From IMG/VR virus record IMGVR_UViG_3300032282_001564, positions 1 to 64,000 of that record: a DNA stretch of 64,000 nucleotides; one strand, given 5' to 3'. The notes under the pieces were generated by a model, which made no database searches, was not told where the DNA came from, and saw nothing but the letters and a program-made list of their open reading frames with translations. Position 1 is the first letter of the stretch, and the number at the start of each line of letters is the position of its first letter. Positions 10,260 through 15,679 of the stretch are shown here, piece by piece. The position numbers were made by a program, and so were the translations under genes. Origin of the DNA: a virus.

Positions 10260-10273
10260 TCAATATCAACTAG

Positions 10274-10334
10274 AAGAAAAGAAAAGTATGCATTTGCTCA
10301 GATGTATGTCTACCTGTGTATACTTTTTCTTTTC
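10274..10334. terminator. Long A/T-flanked inverted repeat between convergent transcription units
   Basis: GAAAAGAAAAGTATGCA ... TGTATACTTTTTCTTTTC arms. Confidence 0.5.
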
Positions 10335-10340
10335 ATTTCA

Positions 10341-10760
10341 AGACTTACTACGTAAGTCTATTGATTCGCTATCGCTCATCAATATGTTTTTCTTAGTATC
10401 ATCCAGATTAATCAGTCACACTTTGCCCGCTAAAGGGGCAAAATGAAATTGGCATCATCCGAGTAGCACAATCACTTAGCGTTACAACATTACAGAGGCG
10501 GTCGTCCGGTACCTCGAGTTGCGTCTTTATACGACGGCGGCACATATTCATACGCTAACACAAATATGTACGTAGGGTTTTTCTCCCTTCTTTTAGCCTT
10601 TATTAAAATTTTTCAAATAGCAAAACCGGTTCCGTAGGCGTATCCGATCATCGTCCTGTTAAGGATAGTTGCTAAGTGCTCTTTACAGCGAAGAGTCTTC
10701 CGTCCCTGCGATCCGCGATCCAGTTGTCATAGGCACACGAGTTTGACCTGTGCTAGTCTA
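10341..10760 (-). ncRNA. Candidate large structured ncRNA (or structured origin element) directly downstream of GIY-YIG-like gene
   Basis: No listed ORF; at least 10 stems; a 12-bp stem with four G-U pairs valid only on the minus strand; its loop TTAGCGT is complementary to ACGCTAA ~70 nt downstream. Confidence 0.6.
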
Positions 10761-11204
10761 TTACTGTGGACTTGGTGTCAGTTTGTTTTTGATGTGGGAG
10801 CCATGGACACGGACTTGAATATGTCCGTTATAGTAGTTGTCTGATTCTAATACTTTGTGTATGAATTGTTCACGAGCCTCAATATAGCTACATTCCGATT
10901 TACTGTTGCAATAAAATAATATTTCTCTGATAAAATTTTCTTTGCCTAGTGTTTCAACATCTTTGTTAAGTTCAATGTTTGAGCCATAATATTCTTGCCA
11001 GTCGCTGTCAACTTTGCTTCTGATCTTTTTCTTTTTCTTCTTACCATTTTTTAGTTTAACCATTTTATAAGTGGTTTTACTAAACTTAGCAAGTTTTTTG
11101 CCAATATACATCCTACCGGATACTTTATTTGTTATCAAATAAACAAATCCGATACAGTCTTCTGGTAATGTTTCTACTTGAGTGTGTTTGTAATGCCATG
11201 TCAT
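10761..11204 (-). CDS. GIY-YIG-like endonuclease
   Basis: GFVYLITN...MYIGKK, YYGS, FIREIL, conserved Glu and YYN; Lys-rich insertion. Confidence 0.75.
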   Translation of the reverse strand: MTWHYKHTQVETLPEDCIGFVYLITNKVSGRMYIGKKLAKFSKTTYKMVKLKNGKKKKKKIRSKVDSDWQEYYGSNIELNKDVETLGKENFIREILFYCNSKSECSYIEAREQFIHKVLESDNYYNGHIQVRVHGSHIKNKLTPSPQ

Positions 11205-11233: not shown

Positions 11234-11677
11234 TTACAAATTTTTCTCGTAGATCCAACCTAAATTCTGTGTACGGTGTATCCAAGTAAATATTGGAGTT
11301 TCAAATTCTAATACCCATTCGCCGTTCCATCCCAAGTAATTACTTTTTAAAGGTAATCTATCAATTGGGTAATATGTTGCTTGATGCATAAAATCGTCTA
11401 ATTTATATCCTTCAATTTCAATTGGGTGTATATAAATTGCTTTGTCTTTGGTAATACTACCGTTTTCTACTACAGTATCTGCGTCAGTTTTGTTAACTAG
11501 ACCCACTTGTAATTTGTGTAATCCGTCGTCTAAATCGACGTCAAAGTGATAGGTTAACTGTTCGCGTAGTGAGCCTTGATCCTGTAGCTCGCCGTCAATT
11601 TTAATATAAAATACGGGCCATACATCATCGTACCCTTTAGGCTCAACAGTTAAATCAAATTTTAATTTAGTAGCCAT
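11234..11677 (-). CDS. Hypothetical protein coupled to radical SAM gene
   Basis: 147-aa ORF overlapping the end of upstream rSAM gene. Confidence 0.7.
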   Translation of the reverse strand: MATKLKFDLTVEPKGYDDVWPVFYIKIDGELQDQGSLREQLTYHFDVDLDDGLHKLQVGLVNKTDADTVVENGSITKDKAIYIHPIEIEGYKLDDFMHQATYYPIDRLPLKSNYLGWNGEWVLEFETPIFTWIHRTQNLGWIYEKNL

Positions 11678-12971
11678 ATTTTTTAAAATAGTCAGTTAGC
11701 ATGGGAAAAGCATTGATTACGCTAGTACCACGTAGTTTGTCTAGCTGTTTAAATTTTGTAACAGATTCCTGTGCTAGTTGTTCATCAATAGTGCAGGCAT
11801 TTAAACTATTAATTGCCGCTTGTATTTCTTTTACTAGATTTTCTAATACGTATGTTTTGTTTCTAAAGTTAGTTAATCCAACTGTGCGATTTTCTAACAA
11901 TGGTTTATAACGAGCTAGTTGTTTTTTAAACTTGTCCTGTAACTCTGCTTTGATATCATTGGGCAACAATTTAATTTGTTGCCACGTTGGATCTGTAGCA
12001 AAATAACTGTTTAACAAAAAGTTATTATCATAGCACCAGTCTATTATACGGTCGTATTCGGTAATAGTCAAAAGCGTAGGTACAGTACGGATAACAAAAT
12101 CAACATTATCCGGAGCCGATGTTCTAAATGTATCTATGTTGCTGAGTATAGTATCTATGTTACCGCCATAGCGTACATAGTTGTTTGACTTACTGAGTGT
12201 TTCGACACTCATACCAATTTCAACTCGCTTAAACTTAGATAACTTTAACCACAAATGATCCAGTGAGTGCATACAGTTAGTGGTAAAACTAAAACTAAAA
12301 TCTGTATGATGTTTTAAAAAGAACATGTCAATTAACTGACCAAATCGTTTGTTAATTGCTGGCTCTCCGCCAATAATATGTAAACTAACTAATTTTGTTT
12401 TTAGTATAGTTTCACAAAACGTTTGCCATATAGCATCATCATCGGTCCAGTTAAGTCTACGAGCATCAGATGCCCAACCTAGATCCTTATAGTCACGTGC
12501 TAACTTATAACTAGCGTTTGGACTACACATAATACAGGCCATGTCGCATTCGTTGCCTAGGCTCAAATGATAACTAACTGGCCGTGTTACAGTAGCACCA
12601 TCATTGGCTAGGCTGTATTCAAATGCGGCTCTGTGAGGGCTTTGTTCAAAGCTCTTGTTAAAGTTACGATCGTAAAAGATAACACTCTTTAGGTTTTCTT
12701 TAATACGCTTACTATGATTACCTATCGAGTCTTGATACTGACATACCCCGCAGGCAGGATTAGGCACGTCTGACATTTTGCTTAATCGCTCATCACGTAG
12801 TCTGCGACTTTGCCAGTAATCATCGATAGGGTAGTTGCGTATGTTCCATTCTTTGGCGTCTTCAGTTTGTGTAATTAAACTACTCATACAGCCGCAGAGA
12901 TCGTAGCTACCATCGTGATTGATGTGTAGCTCGTACCAGGGTATGTTACAAAATATATCTTTATTCGGCAT
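11667..12971 (-). CDS. Radical SAM protein with N-terminal twitch/SPASM-like Cys cluster
   Basis: CDMACIMC, GGEP; N-terminal C..PW...CGC...CGVC. Confidence 0.9.
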   Translation of the reverse strand: MPNKDIFCNIPWYELHINHDGSYDLCGCMSSLITQTEDAKEWNIRNYPIDDYWQSRRLRDERLSKMSDVPNPACGVCQYQDSIGNHSKRIKENLKSVIFYDRNFNKSFEQSPHRAAFEYSLANDGATVTRPVSYHLSLGNECDMACIMCSPNASYKLARDYKDLGWASDARRLNWTDDDAIWQTFCETILKTKLVSLHIIGGEPAINKRFGQLIDMFFLKHHTDFSFSFTTNCMHSLDHLWLKLSKFKRVEIGMSVETLSKSNNYVRYGGNIDTILSNIDTFRTSAPDNVDFVIRTVPTLLTITEYDRIIDWCYDNNFLLNSYFATDPTWQQIKLLPNDIKAELQDKFKKQLARYKPLLENRTVGLTNFRNKTYVLENLVKEIQAAINSLNACTIDEQLAQESVTKFKQLDKLRGTSVINAFPMLTDYFKKYGY

Positions 12972-13950
12972 TTTTACACTTTAGTTTACAAATGTCCAAT
13001 GGTGCTATTTCAAAACGTGTGTACATTTCTGCCCACAGTGGATCATCTAATATTTCTGTTAATGTACGTGACTTAATGTTTAATCGTTCTCGGTGCTTTT
13101 CAAAGAAATCGTTTTCCAGGTAGCCCGAGTTAAACCAAGGACAAGGAAACACATAGCCATCTACATTAATAAACATTGGTATGTCCCAATTAGCACAGCG
13201 AGCCCATTCATGTCGATCGCGTTTATTGTAGAATACTACAGGAATACGACTGTTTAATTTTTCCTGTAGTACTTGGTACTTGCCTATGGCTACATAGCCG
13301 CCTACAGGTTTTAGTGGATCTACGCCGTTGATGGTGTACTGATTATCAAACTTTGTACTCAGCACAGCTTCAAATGTATCAAAGCCTAAGTCACGTGCTA
13401 GATCTTGCATCCATGGCATCTTATCTTCGTTAAATTTAAAATAAATTGCCGACCAATTCATTTGTGCTTTTGTGACACGTCTTAATGCACGAGCCCCTGC
13501 AACGATACTATTAAAATCGCTATTAACTCTGTACTGTTCGTTGCTGGCTTGATCCCATCCGTCGACACTAAATGTAATCTTATCGTTGGTACGCAAATAC
13601 ATACCTAATTCTTGCCACCATGCTTCGGGCTTGTAACTACCATTGGTAACGATCACTAGGCTAACATTAAATCTAGCTCGTTTAATATATTCTATAATAG
13701 GCAAAAAGTCTCGAGCGTATATAGGATCACCTATGTCGCCACAGAAAGTTATTTCCTGTATTTCTTTTAGTAGTTCGGGGCTAAAGGCACGCTGAAACTC
13801 TAGTAAACTAATTTCTCTATTAAGATTATCTGGATTTAATTCCGTACGAGGACAACGTGGACATTTTAGTGTACACTTAGAACTTAGCTCAATGTGTATA
13901 CGCTTGTGGCTAAGTAATTTCGATGTCGGTGTTGTAACTTGTAAATCCAT
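12961..13950 (-). CDS. Radical SAM protein with C-terminal SPASM/twitch-like domain (start uncertain)
   Basis: CTLKCPRC, CGDIGDP, TNGS, SVDG; C-terminal C...G.VFPCPW...C...C. Confidence 0.88.
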   Translation of the reverse strand: MDLQVTTPTSKLLSHKRIHIELSSKCTLKCPRCPRTELNPDNLNREISLLEFQRAFSPELLKEIQEITFCGDIGDPIYARDFLPIIEYIKRARFNVSLVIVTNGSYKPEAWWQELGMYLRTNDKITFSVDGWDQASNEQYRVNSDFNSIVAGARALRRVTKAQMNWSAIYFKFNEDKMPWMQDLARDLGFDTFEAVLSTKFDNQYTINGVDPLKPVGGYVAIGKYQVLQEKLNSRIPVVFYNKRDRHEWARCANWDIPMFINVDGYVFPCPWFNSGYLENDFFEKHRERLNIKSRTLTEILDDPLWAEMYTRFEIAPLDICKLKCKNAE

Positions 13951-15679
13951 TTTCTTTAACTACGTGTAGTGTATTGTTTACACGACCCGCTAGTTCATCT
14001 TTGTGCGATACTAACCATACACTCTTGTTAGATTCGCGACTCATCTTTTTAAGGACAGCCAACGAGTTTTCTACACCTGAGCTATCCATACCAGAATCTA
14101 CTAGTTCGTCAATGAACAACAAGTTAATAGGTTGATAAAGACTTTCCCATACATCACGGAAAGCCCATGATAAACTTAAGATAAGTCTATTACGTTCACC
14201 ACGCGATAGGTTATCAAAGTCTAAATCTCTGCCTAGTTCAGTAATGGCTACAGTCAAGTCGTTGTTAAACTTAACGGTGTGTGGTAAGCCAATACGATCT
14301 AGGTACTGCCCTAAACGTGCATTTAAGTAACTTAAATTTTGATCAATAATACGTTTACGAATAAACGAATCTTTGTTGGTTAATAGTTTTAGTAGGAAGT
14401 CTTGGTGTTCTTTTAAATTAGTTAAATCGTTCATTTCGCTATAACTAATTTCTTCGAGTCCTTTTTCCTGCATCTCAACAATTTGTTCGGCATAAGGATC
14501 TGCTTCGGCAACCTTTAGCTCAATTTGCTGTTGTAAATTTGTTACTGTACTACGATGATGGATAGCATCTTCTTCTTTGTCGTAGAACGTTTCAGGTTTA
14601 GTACCTAATTCGCCTAGCTCTCGTAATGCATCAGTTAACTCCATCCACTGACCATTAGTAGCCAGTGCTTGTAATGCGGCTTCCTGTAGCTCTTTCTTTT
14701 TGCCGGTTAAAACAGATTCGTGTTTTTCGTCGTGCAGTTCCTGCCCACAGGCGTGACACTTATGGTCCTCAAGTGCCGCGATTTCTTTTTTGAGCTTTTC
14801 AATAAGTTTAGTTTCACGTACTTCGTCCTGTTCGCATCGTGAAATATAGGATGATAAATCAGTGATATCTTTCTTCTTTGACTTATATTCAGCAAGAGCC
14901 TTATGTGCCGCAATTTCTGCATCAATATCAATTTTGAGTAACTGATCGAGAGCGGTTTGTAACTTCCCTGTATCTTCAGCATGTTTTTTAACCCATTGTT
15001 CTTGTCTACGTTTTAAACTTTCAATTTGTTCTTCAATGCGTTTGTTAGCATCACCAACTGCTTTAATACGAAACTCTTCTTTGGTAATAGCATCCTTAGT
15101 GGCTTTGTTTAATTCTTTTAGTCGTTCAGCTTTTTCACTAAGCAATGTAATGCCCAATAGCTGTTCAATGATAGTACGCTGATCATTAGCTTTAAGTGCC
15201 AGAAACGGTTCTGTGTAGGTGTTAAGTGCTACAATATGTTTGAACATATCGTGACTCATACCCAACATACGTTCAATGTCTTGTTGTGTTTCTCTGCTGT
15301 CGCCCTGTGCGTCGTCGGTAATTTCTTTTTCTTGATCACCGACCCAAAACTTCATAATGCCGGGCTTGCGGCCACGTTCAATACGATAAGTTTCTCCGTC
15401 CTTTTCAAAATCAATAGTAACCATCATGTTCTTTTGGTTAGTCTTATTGATTAAGTTATCCTTCTTGATATTAGTAAGAGCATTGCCGTACATAGCATAG
15501 CTAAGGGCATTGATAATAGTAGTCTTACCTGTGCCGTTACGAGCACCAGAGTCGTCACCACCTAAGTCTAAGTTTTCACCCAGAACTAAAGTTAAATCGC
15601 GCCGATCAAAATCAATTGCTTGTGTAGTGTTACCTACACTCATAAAGTTTTTAACGGTTAGAGTTTTTATTTTGAACAT
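13910..15679 (-). CDS. gp46: Recombination endonuclease ATPase subunit (gp46 / SbcC / Rad50-like)
   Basis: Walker A NGTGKTT, zinc hook CHAC, signature LSRGE, Walker B LLFIDE, SH switch. Confidence 0.95.
   Translation of the reverse strand: MFKIKTLTVKNFMSVGNTTQAIDFDRRDLTLVLGENLDLGGDDSGARNGTGKTTIINALSYAMYGNALTNIKKDNLINKTNQKNMMVTIDFEKDGETYRIERGRKPGIMKFWVGDQEKEITDDAQGDSRETQQDIERMLGMSHDMFKHIVALNTYTEPFLALKANDQRTIIEQLLGITLLSEKAERLKELNKATKDAITKEEFRIKAVGDANKRIEEQIESLKRRQEQWVKKHAEDTGKLQTALDQLLKIDIDAEIAAHKALAEYKSKKKDITDLSSYISRCEQDEVRETKLIEKLKKEIAALEDHKCHACGQELHDEKHESVLTGKKKELQEAALQALATNGQWMELTDALRELGELGTKPETFYDKEEDAIHHRSTVTNLQQQIELKVAEADPYAEQIVEMQEKGLEEISYSEMNDLTNLKEHQDFLLKLLTNKDSFIRKRIIDQNLSYLNARLGQYLDRIGLPHTVKFNNDLTVAITELGRDLDFDNLSRGERNRLILSLSWAFRDVWESLYQPINLLFIDELVDSGMDSSGVENSLAVLKKMSRESNKSVWLVSHKDELAGRVNNTLHVVKENGFTSYNTDIEIT

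What the first reader, a model, noticed from the sequence alone, without database searches (positions are those of the whole stretch)
10341..11204. GIY-YIG-like nuclease gene followed immediately by a ~420-nt pseudoknotted ncRNA candidate
Seen: the largest non-coding gap in a gene-dense window begins at the nuclease stop codon and looks more GC-rich than its flanks. Stems (plus coordinates): 10733-37/10749-53, 10706-13/10717-23, 10679-83/10691-95, a multiloop closed by 10618-23/10669-74 with two inner stems, 10574-77/10585-88, 10541-52/10559-70, 10522-25/10533-36, 10484-88/10518-22 enclosing 10495-99/10511-15, and 10422-28/10436-42. The 10541-10570 stem has four G-U pairs on the minus strand that would be A-C mismatches on plus, favouring a minus-strand RNA. 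Its loop (10552-10558) is exactly complementary to 10476-10482, a 7-bp pseudoknot. GGATGAT recurs at 10398-10404 and 10454-10460. The nuclease has a KLKNGKKKKKKIRSK insert. Known: HEARO/OMEGA systems pair compact nucleases with large RNAs, and phages carry large ornate RNAs. Inference: an uncharacterised nuclease-RNA complex, a ribozyme, or a replication-primer RNA.
Basis: partly seen in the sequence, partly recalled or inferred. Interest (0 to 1): 0.8.

Follow-up and report, generated by a model that had tools for sequence, protein, structure and literature searches.

The report
Extended Polynucleobacter-1 phage RNA
The gap behind a small DNA-cutting enzyme gene of this uncultured freshwater T4-like phage encodes a real, doubly knotted RNA of about 420 bases. 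Its first third is an orphan motif catalogued in 2010, its job is still unknown, and it probably does not guide the neighbouring enzyme.

Summary
Window 10342-10758 (minus strand) encodes a conserved, structured non-coding RNA directly after a 147-aa GIY-YIG nuclease gene.

It is not uncharacterised. Bases 10615-10758 are a full-length match to Rfam RF01718, Polynucleobacter-1 RNA (111 bits; cut-off 37). Weinberg 2010's own alignment already carries the 3' tail with a pseudoknot. That paper also notes the position downstream of a gene family related to PSSM2_218, which I show is this nuclease family.

On 75 diverse phage copies:
- 88 pairs in 17 helices and two pseudoknots are supported by covariation.
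- The two GGAUGAU copies are "twin boxes": identical within 88 of 92 RNAs, with at least 10 different words between RNAs. No partner was found.

The nuclease-RNA complex reading is weakened by four results:
- The protein family occurs without the RNA in about 500 isolate phages.
- The RNA occurs without the nuclease in about 27 betaproteobacterial genomes.
- A PD-(D/E)XK nuclease replaces the GIY-YIG gene in 4 loci.
- Extra ORFs can sit between the nuclease gene and the RNA.

The scan has noted this RNA before on other DNA (88 notes in at least 77 genomes), with the same conclusion. Function is unknown, so interest is moderate.

The parts
10761..11204 (-). 147-aa stand-alone GIY-YIG nuclease gene (SegE-type catalytic domain only; family phrog_447 / T4-GC213, often mislabelled 'NAD synthetase')
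   Evidence: Pfam PF19835 at 4.7e-31, covering residues 3-129. phrog_447 at 7e-36. 37% identity to PSSM2_218. The GIY/YIG tyrosines, R93, E109 and N126 are invariant. The AF2 model has pLDDT 89.8 and best matches the I-TevI catalytic domain, probability 0.94-0.96.
10615..10758 (-). 5' domain of the RNA: full-length Polynucleobacter-1 motif (RF01718). Helices: P1 10749-53/10733-37; P2 10717-23/10706-13; P3 10692-95/10679-82; P4 10670-74/10618-22 enclosing P4a and P4b.
   Evidence: cmscan gives 111.1 bits against a gathering score of 37, over model positions 1-141. The helices are 94-100% paired, with compensatory changes.
10342..10614 (-). 3' 'tail' domain of the same RNA. It is not in the Rfam model but is present in the 2010 alignment. 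It contains hairpins T1 and T2, helices B and C, hairpin H, a UGAUGAG...CGAA hairpin and a terminal hairpin.
   Evidence: Conservation continues to about 420-430 nt after the stop codon and then falls to background. Covariation is shown. The tail alone is found in 48 of 49 related loci reached through gp46.
10552..10558 (-). Pseudoknot 1, 5' strand (loop of hairpin T2). It pairs with 10476-10482.
   Evidence: 7 of 7 pairs show changes on both sides; 93.8% of cells are paired.
10476..10482 (-). Pseudoknot 1, 3' strand
10531..10535 (-). Pseudoknot 2, 5' strand (GUCGU). It pairs with ACGAC at 10501-10505, in the loop of hairpin C.
   Evidence: 97.8% of cells are paired and 3 pairs show compensatory changes.
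10501..10505 (-). Pseudoknot 2, 3' strand
10454..10460 (-). Twin box 1 (GGAUGAU, after ACUC)
   Evidence: It is identical to box 2 in 88 of 92 unique RNAs, with at least 10 words across phages. Bacterial copies use other words, for example AGCGAAA.
10398..10404 (-). Twin box 2 (GGAUGAU, after AUCU)
   Evidence: As for box 1. Column pairs 10460/10404, 10456/10400 and 10454/10398 hold the same letter in 97-99% of sequences.
10342..10358 (-). Terminal hairpin, the probable 3' end of the RNA
   Evidence: 5 of 5 inner pairs show compensatory changes. Conservation ends here. No canonical U-tract terminator was found.
10260..10341 (.). Unconserved remainder of the gap. It holds a long hairpin between the convergent genes and is not part of the conserved RNA.
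   Evidence: The fold of either strand shows the hairpin. Identity to relatives is at background level.

Best explanation
Window 10342-10758 (minus strand) is a full-length phage copy of the extended Polynucleobacter-1 RNA. It is a stand-alone structured non-coding RNA of about 420 nt. It consists of the RF01718 5' domain plus a doubly pseudoknotted tail.

Shown:
- It is a member of RF01718.
- The fold is supported by covariation.
- It occupies a fixed site in a clade of freshwater T4-like, often giant, phages. That site is at the end of the gp46-side transcription unit, directly after a small nuclease gene and convergent with the gp51/gp26-like baseplate genes.
- The same RNA lives in islands of freshwater Betaproteobacteria without any such nuclease.

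Inferred:
- In the phage it is made as the 3' part of the nuclease operon transcript, since no separate promoter is seen.
- It acts in trans. The rigid knotted scaffold displays two identical 7-nt single-stranded words (the twin boxes). These are read by one partner with two equivalent sites, or by two copies of a partner. That partner would be a nucleic acid or a dimeric protein encoded elsewhere.
- The nuclease is a neighbour, not an obligate partner. The slot just upstream of this conserved RNA gene collects exchangeable free-standing, homing-type nuclease genes and cargo ORFs, much as seg and mob genes sit beside conserved genes in T4.
For: Identity: RF01718 at 111 bits over model positions 1-141. 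The tail, the pseudoknot and the upstream gene family are in Weinberg 2010's supplement. PSSM2_218 belongs to the same protein family.

Fold: 88 pairs were tested. 87.3% of cells are paired, against 72.4% in shuffles (0 of 500 reach it) and 32-45% when partners are slid. 68 pairs change on both sides.

Fixed site: 48 of 49 loci reached through gp46 have the RNA, and 49 of 49 have a nuclease gene upstream.

Independence of the two parts:
- Six isolate phages with the protein have no RNA and no room for it.
- About 27 bacterial contigs have the RNA at 86-104 bits, with neither nuclease but with a DUF6641 gene.
- A PD-(D/E)XK nuclease replaces the GIY-YIG gene in L057, L095, L187 and L210.
- The nuclease types (about 75, 57 and 41% identity) do not follow gp46 identity and combine with different RNA 5' domains.
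- ORFs are inserted between the nuclease gene and the RNA in 8 loci.

Trans reading: the boxes are identical in 88 of 92 RNAs. No internal complementary partner rises above the shuffle control.
Against: No transcript data exist, so the ends, processing and abundance of the RNA are unknown.

The partner of the twin boxes was not found. It is not in the RNA itself, not in the 2-kb flanks (24 hits against 33.7 in controls) and not in the 113 kb held of this genome.

Some facts leave room for a functional link with the nuclease:
- 100% of the phage loci have a nuclease gene upstream.
- The protein is more conserved (about 75% identity) than gp46 (about 59%).
- The protein lacks a DNA-binding domain.
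- The protein has a lysine-rich beta-hairpin.

The homing-slot idea predicts empty sites, and none was seen.
Confidence: 0.6

Rival explanations
1. Nuclease-RNA partnership. The RNA binds the domain-only GIY-YIG (or PD-(D/E)XK) nuclease and supplies targeting, scaffolding or control, as omega-RNAs do for IscB and TnpB.
For: - The RNA is adjacent to the nuclease gene in about 103 of 109 loci, starting -64 to +10 nt from the stop codon.
- A nuclease gene lies upstream in 49 of 49 loci.
- The protein is a catalytic domain only, with a conserved lysine-rich beta-hairpin.
- Two unrelated nuclease families occupy the same slot.
- The twin boxes are short variable words.
Against: - Same-length homologues exist without the RNA in about 500 isolate phages.
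- The RNA exists without the nuclease in bacteria.
- Nuclease type and RNA 5'-domain type assort independently.
- ORFs are inserted between the two.
- There is no terminal guide segment.
- The box word is not enriched in the flanks or the genome.
Confidence: 0.12
2. Cis-acting 3'-UTR element. The RNA is a structured operon end that stabilises the upstream mRNA, stops transcription, or insulates it from the convergent baseplate genes.
For: - The RNA always starts within about 0-40 nt of the stop codon of whatever ORF is upstream.
- No promoter signal lies before it.
- It always sits at the convergent junction.
- It ends in a hairpin.
Against: - About 420 nt with two pseudoknots and invariant single-stranded segments is far more than a stabiliser or terminator needs.
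- In bacteria the RNA is transcribed divergently from the DUF6641 gene, about 200 nt from any ORF, so it is a gene of its own.
- The identical twin boxes are not explained.
Confidence: 0.13
3. Ribozyme. The RNA is a large catalytic RNA, for example one that processes itself or acts on DNA or RNA.
For: The size, the number of helices, the two pseudoknots and the many invariant unpaired nucleotides are typical of ribozymes and other large ornate RNAs.
Against: There is no match to any ribozyme family in Rfam, even at E up to 10. No substrate or cleavage site is evident. Nothing here tests catalysis.
Confidence: 0.06

Closest known systems
Polynucleobacter-1 RNA motif (Rfam RF01718; Weinberg et al. 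2010, Genome Biol 11:R31, PMC2864571)
   Same: The 5' 144 nt match the whole model at 111 bits. The same tail with pseudoknot is in the authors' alignment. The position is the same, downstream of the GOS11034/PSSM2_218 gene family. Both come from freshwater sources.
   Different: In 2010 the authors found no copy in any purified phage, and the upstream gene was not recognised as a GIY-YIG nuclease. I read only parts of the 2010 supplement, and one full-text search on the motif name found no later paper.
HEARO / omega-RNA with IscB, and TnpB reRNA (OMEGA systems)
   Same: A large structured RNA encoded right next to a compact nuclease gene on a mobile genome. HEARO was first reported in the same 2010 survey.
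   Different: There is no RuvC/HNH protein. There is no variable guide at an RNA end. The RNA and the protein each occur widely without the other. The nuclease family is exchangeable.
Free-standing homing endonucleases of T4-like phages (seg and mob genes, e.g. SegE; segB in the tRNA cluster)
   Same: A SegE-type GIY-YIG catalytic domain. The gene sits in an intergenic slot beside a conserved (RNA) gene. Different nuclease families replace one another at one site. The nuclease type is incongruent with core-gene phylogeny.
   Different: The protein lacks the C-terminal DNA-binding domain of Seg proteins and I-TevI. The slot was occupied in 49 of 49 loci, with no empty allele seen. The protein is more conserved than neighbouring core genes.
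IS110/IS1111 bridge (seek) RNAs
   Same: A structured RNA of a mobile element that carries two short programmable segments.
   Different: There is no DEDD recombinase. The boxes here are identical 7-mers in single-stranded linkers, not split guides inside internal loops. No matching DNA sites were found.
Large ornate phage-associated RNAs (GOLLD, ROOL)
   Same: RNAs of several hundred nucleotides, multiply pseudoknotted, function unknown, carried by phages.
   Different: There is no sequence or model match. The size and genomic context differ: those RNAs lie near tRNA genes.

Membership tests
Rfam RF01718 Polynucleobacter-1 RNA | Covariance-model score at or above the gathering score, over the full model | tested here: met
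   111.1 bits against 37, model positions 1-141 of 141, minus strand
Rfam RF01718 Polynucleobacter-1 RNA | Model helices kept by compensatory changes in relatives | tested here: met
   Helices 1-6 are 94-100% paired, and 19 of 29 pairs change on both sides.
Rfam RF01718 Polynucleobacter-1 RNA | Published context: downstream of a GOS11034 / PSSM2_218-like gene, with a 3' tail and pseudoknot | tested here: met
   The upstream ORF is 37% identical to PSSM2_218, E 3e-21. The tail and pseudoknot are present.
GIY-YIG nuclease, SegE type (Pfam PF19835) | Profile match above the cut-off, with conserved GIY/YIG tyrosines, Arg, Glu and Asn | tested here: met
   108 bits against 25. Y22, Y33, R93, E109 and N126 are invariant. 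The fold matches the I-TevI catalytic domain.
Free-standing homing endonuclease (Seg / I-TevI type) | Separate C-terminal DNA-binding domain | tested here: not met
   The protein is 147 aa. The catalytic domain covers residues 3-129 and the last residues are disordered.
Free-standing homing endonuclease (Seg / I-TevI type) | Sporadic presence or absence among related genomes | tested here: not met
   49 of 49 loci spanning gp46 to gp51 carry a nuclease gene. However, four types alternate and do not follow gp46 identity.
Free-standing homing endonuclease (Seg / I-TevI type) | Site-specific DNA cleavage and gene conversion | not testable with these tools
   This needs cleavage assays and co-infection crosses.
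RNA-guided nuclease system (OMEGA / HEARO-like) | Obligate co-occurrence of the RNA and the nuclease | tested here: not met
   The protein occurs without the RNA. The RNA occurs without the protein.
RNA-guided nuclease system (OMEGA / HEARO-like) | A variable guide segment matching target DNA | tested here: not met
   Only 7-nt twin boxes vary. They show no enrichment in the flanks or the genome. The 5' end is conserved, and the alignment degenerates beyond the terminal hairpin.
Group I intron carrying a homing endonuclease gene | Match to the intron core model and flanking exons | tested here: not met
   No Intron_gpI match at E up to 10. Only 29 nt lie upstream of the nuclease gene. There is no same-strand ORF downstream, where the next gene is convergent.

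The most novel reading that the evidence does not exclude
The twin boxes are programmable specificity words. In this reading the knotted RNA recognises two identical 7-nt sites in DNA or RNA. It would lend that specificity to DNA-acting enzymes that lack their own DNA-binding domains: the GIY-YIG or PD-(D/E)XK nucleases in phages, and the 190-aa tyrosine recombinase in bacterial islands. That would be a new kind of RNA-guided system with exchangeable effectors.
Probability: 0.06. Interest if true: 0.9.

Novelty: new member of a known kind. Interest (0 to 1): 0.45.

Why it matters
Polynucleobacter-1 has been an orphan RNA since 2010. This window firmly places a full-length copy in a T4-like phage. 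It identifies the long-noted upstream gene as a domain-only GIY-YIG nuclease. It shows the RNA is about three times longer than the Rfam model, with two pseudoknots.

The twin boxes are always the same word twice within an RNA, and the word changes between lineages. That is a clear signature of a trans-acting reader, and it gives a concrete handle for experiments. Cultured strains carry the RNA (Polynucleobacter rarus MT-CBb6A5, Limnohabitans sp. Bal53), so the question is testable.

For annotation, the result also corrects the widespread 'NAD synthetase' label on this nuclease family.

Tried and rejected
- Group I intron, HEARO or any other Rfam family over the gap: only RF01718 matches. The other hits are far below their cut-offs (U4 at 21 bits, cow-rumen-2 at 19 bits).
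- tRNA or tmRNA: none in the window.
- Coding potential: the 47-aa ORF at 10408-10551 has no Pfam match. Relatives have indels in its span that are not multiples of three. The longest sense ORFs in the RNA region are unremarkable, median 41 codons.
- DNA similarity to isolate phages: none.
- RNA next to the protein's homologues in Melnitz, phiN3, a Variovorax phage, ACP17, P-HM1 and S-SRM01: none.
- Internal partner for the boxes: the only complementary site (AUUGUUU, around 10610-10625) is invariant and scores the same with shuffled words (34 against 35.8).
- Box word or its complement elsewhere in the 113-kb genome: 11 7-mer hits against about 14.6 expected.
- Box word or its complement in the 2-kb flanks of 74 loci: no enrichment.
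- Anticodon-loop, CsrA-site, C/D-box and stop-codon/bypass readings of the boxes: considered from the sequence and dropped, because the observed variants break each consensus.
- Promoter and terminator scan: nothing above chance.
- Defence-system profiles (PADLOC) for the bacterial neighbours: none.
- PDB sequence search with the nuclease: nothing. The fold search was needed.

Full report
**What is there**

The window is part of a 113-kb IMG/VR virus record. Around the finding, the minus strand carries these genes in order:
- a gp46-like SbcC-type gene (13910-15679);
- two ORFs with radical-SAM-type cysteine triads;
- a 147-aa ORF of unknown function (11234-11677);
- the 147-aa nuclease gene (10761-11204).

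A 501-nt ORF-free stretch follows (10260-10760). The stretch is the largest ORF-free gap of the window. It is richer in G+C than its flanks.

**Identity of the RNA**

An Rfam scan of the whole window gives one hit. 10615-10758 (minus strand) matches the complete Polynucleobacter-1 model RF01718 at 111.1 bits, against a gathering score of 37. It is the only copy in the genome.

The source paper is Weinberg et al. 2010 (PMC2864571). Its supplement says the following:
- The motif comes from environmental samples and from Polynucleobacter.
- The 3' half is not always detected.
- Most copies lie downstream of genes of family GOS11034, with possible homology to PSSM2_218 of cyanophage P-SSM2.
- No copy was found in a purified phage.

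The authors' Stockholm file holds sequences that run on into the same tail as here. It also annotates a 'tail' subfamily with a pseudoknot. A full-text search found no later paper on the motif.

**The upstream gene**

The ORF at 10761-11204 is a SegE-type GIY-YIG domain (PF19835, 4.7e-31, residues 3-129). It belongs to phrog_447.
- It is 37% identical to PSSM2_218 (T4-GC213), so the 2010 gene association is this same family.
- tblastn finds homologues at 36-50% identity in 498 isolate phage records. These include cyanomyoviruses, Methylophilales phage Melnitz, Sinorhizobium phiN3/phiM12 and Acidovorax ACP17. Many are labelled 'NAD synthetase'.
- The catalytic residues are invariant.
- An AlphaFold model (pLDDT 89.8) best matches the I-TevI catalytic domain. 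It places the lysine-rich stretch in a long beta-hairpin at residues 40-66.
- There is no separate DNA-binding domain.

**Relatives and structure**

A pattern from the motif core found at least 120 IMG/VR contigs. Conservation runs for about 420-430 nt after the stop codon and then drops to background.

I took 75 copies that are less than 88% identical to each other (alignment A1). On these, mutual information and pair counts support 17 helices with 88 pairs:

| Measure | This structure | Shuffled columns | 3' partners slid |
|---|---|---|---|
| Cells paired | 87.3% | 72.4% (0 of 500 reach it) | 32-45% |
| Covariation score | 0.405 | 0.155 | at most 0.109 |

Sixty-eight of the 88 pairs change on both sides.

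Two hairpins score poorly: H at 10422-42, and the UGAUGAG...CGAA hairpin at 10359-84. The cause is register shifts in the MAFFT alignment. Their stems are visible in the sequences.

**Twin boxes**

The two GGAUGAU copies are the variable cores of a longer direct repeat, GUGAC...AYUC(U)-N7. In 88 of 92 unique RNAs the two 7-mers are identical. The other four are register shifts or a gap.

At least ten words occur in phages, including AGAUAAU, GGAUAAU, GGAUGAA, AGAUGAG and GCAUAAU. Bacterial copies keep the rule with other words, AGCGAAA and AUCAAAA. Two bacterial copies differ at one position.

The word differs in about half of RNA pairs at 70-75% scaffold identity. It never differs at 90% identity or above.

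I found no partner:
- none inside the RNA above a shuffle control;
- none in the 2-kb flanks;
- none in the genome.

Identical, rather than complementary, co-variation points to an outside reader with two equivalent sites. Its nature is not shown.

**Is the nuclease a partner?**

Points for a link:
- In about 103 of 109 loci the RNA starts -64 to +10 nt from the stop codon of a 72-82% identical homologue.
- I also started from gp46, independently of the RNA. All 49 loci that span gp46 to gp51/gp26 have a small nuclease gene in front of the RNA, and 48 of 49 have the RNA tail.

Points against a link:
- Six isolate phages with the protein have no RNA and no room for one.
- About 27 genome contigs of freshwater Betaproteobacteria carry RF01718 at 86-104 bits without either nuclease. 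They include Limnohabitans sp. Bal53 (twice) and Polynucleobacter rarus. In these, a DUF6641 gene lies divergently upstream in 23 of 24 loci, and a 190-aa tyrosine recombinase lies downstream in 7 of about 13.
- A PD-(D/E)XK nuclease (PF24608) takes the slot in L057, L095, L187 and L210.
- GIY-YIG types of about 75, 57 and 41% identity are distributed without regard to gp46 identity.
- Eight loci have a 151-334-aa ORF between the nuclease gene and the RNA.

**Alternative 5' domains**

In 31 loci only the tail is recognisable. The 95-190 nt in front of it form different conserved 5' domains, and 12 of these loci gave no Rfam match. The tail is thus the constant part in phages. RF01718 is one of at least three 5' domains.

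**Reading**

The RNA is an autonomous gene of mobile genomes. Its position behind a nuclease gene is best explained by genome architecture. An exchangeable slot for homing-type nuclease genes and cargo ORFs lies next to a conserved RNA gene. The nuclease gene and the RNA are probably co-transcribed, because no promoter or terminator signal stands out.

How the RNA works is inferred only: a rigid, doubly knotted scaffold that presents two identical words to a trans partner. The rivals (nuclease partnership, 3'-UTR element, ribozyme) are not excluded and are scored in their own sections.

**Earlier notes of this scan**

After my own analysis I found 88 earlier notes on this RNA in at least 77 other genomes. 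Follow-up reports reached the same conclusions: an extended Polynucleobacter-1 'twin-box' RNA, probably not a guide for the nuclease. Two further notes cover the bacterial island context. They agree with what I tested here and did not change my reading.

Noticed in passing
L181:3757-3975, L233, L239, L208 and about 25 more loci; L179/L191/L197 hold a third type: Related phages have the same RNA tail behind the nuclease gene, but with different conserved 5' domains of about 95-190 nt. Twelve of these loci gave no Rfam match. RF01718 is one of at least three 5' modules.
   Followed up: partly
L006:10375-11148, L029:10623-11402, L032:240-926, L036:5687-6487, L039:529-1533, L079:4678-5133, L099:10743-11588: Single cargo ORFs of 151-334 aa, with no Pfam match above the cut-offs, are inserted exactly between the nuclease gene and the RNA. 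Each ends within about 0-36 nt of the RNA start. This looks like a gene-swapping slot.
   Followed up: partly
L057:1666-2184, L095:13755-14273, L187, L210: A 172-aa PD-(D/E)XK nuclease (PF24608; phrog_244, 'RusA-like resolvase') replaces the GIY-YIG gene directly upstream of the RNA.
   Followed up: partly
L130, L139, L140, L162, L129, L166, L141 (bacterial contigs): In Betaproteobacteria the RNA lies between a divergent DUF6641 gene and, in about half of the loci, a 190-aa tyrosine recombinase that is a catalytic domain only (PF00589). The Limnohabitans group (L133, L149, L163) seems to have the 5' domain without the tail.
   Followed up: partly
GenBank records (e.g. PSSM2_218, PHM1_182, PHIN3_314): This GIY-YIG family (T4-GC213 / phrog_447) is widely annotated as 'NAD synthetase'. 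That label looks like a propagated mislabel.
   Followed up: partly
window 11667-12971 and 12961-13950 (minus strand): Two adjacent ORFs (434 and 329 aa) each contain a C-x3-C-x2-C triad typical of radical SAM enzymes. Relatives occur in only 6 and 35 of the related loci, so this is part of the variable region between gp46 and the nuclease gene.
   Followed up: no
window 10270-10335: A long, A/T-rich, nearly perfect hairpin lies between the end of the conserved RNA and the convergent 77-aa gene. It is not conserved in relatives and may be a two-way terminator.
   Followed up: no
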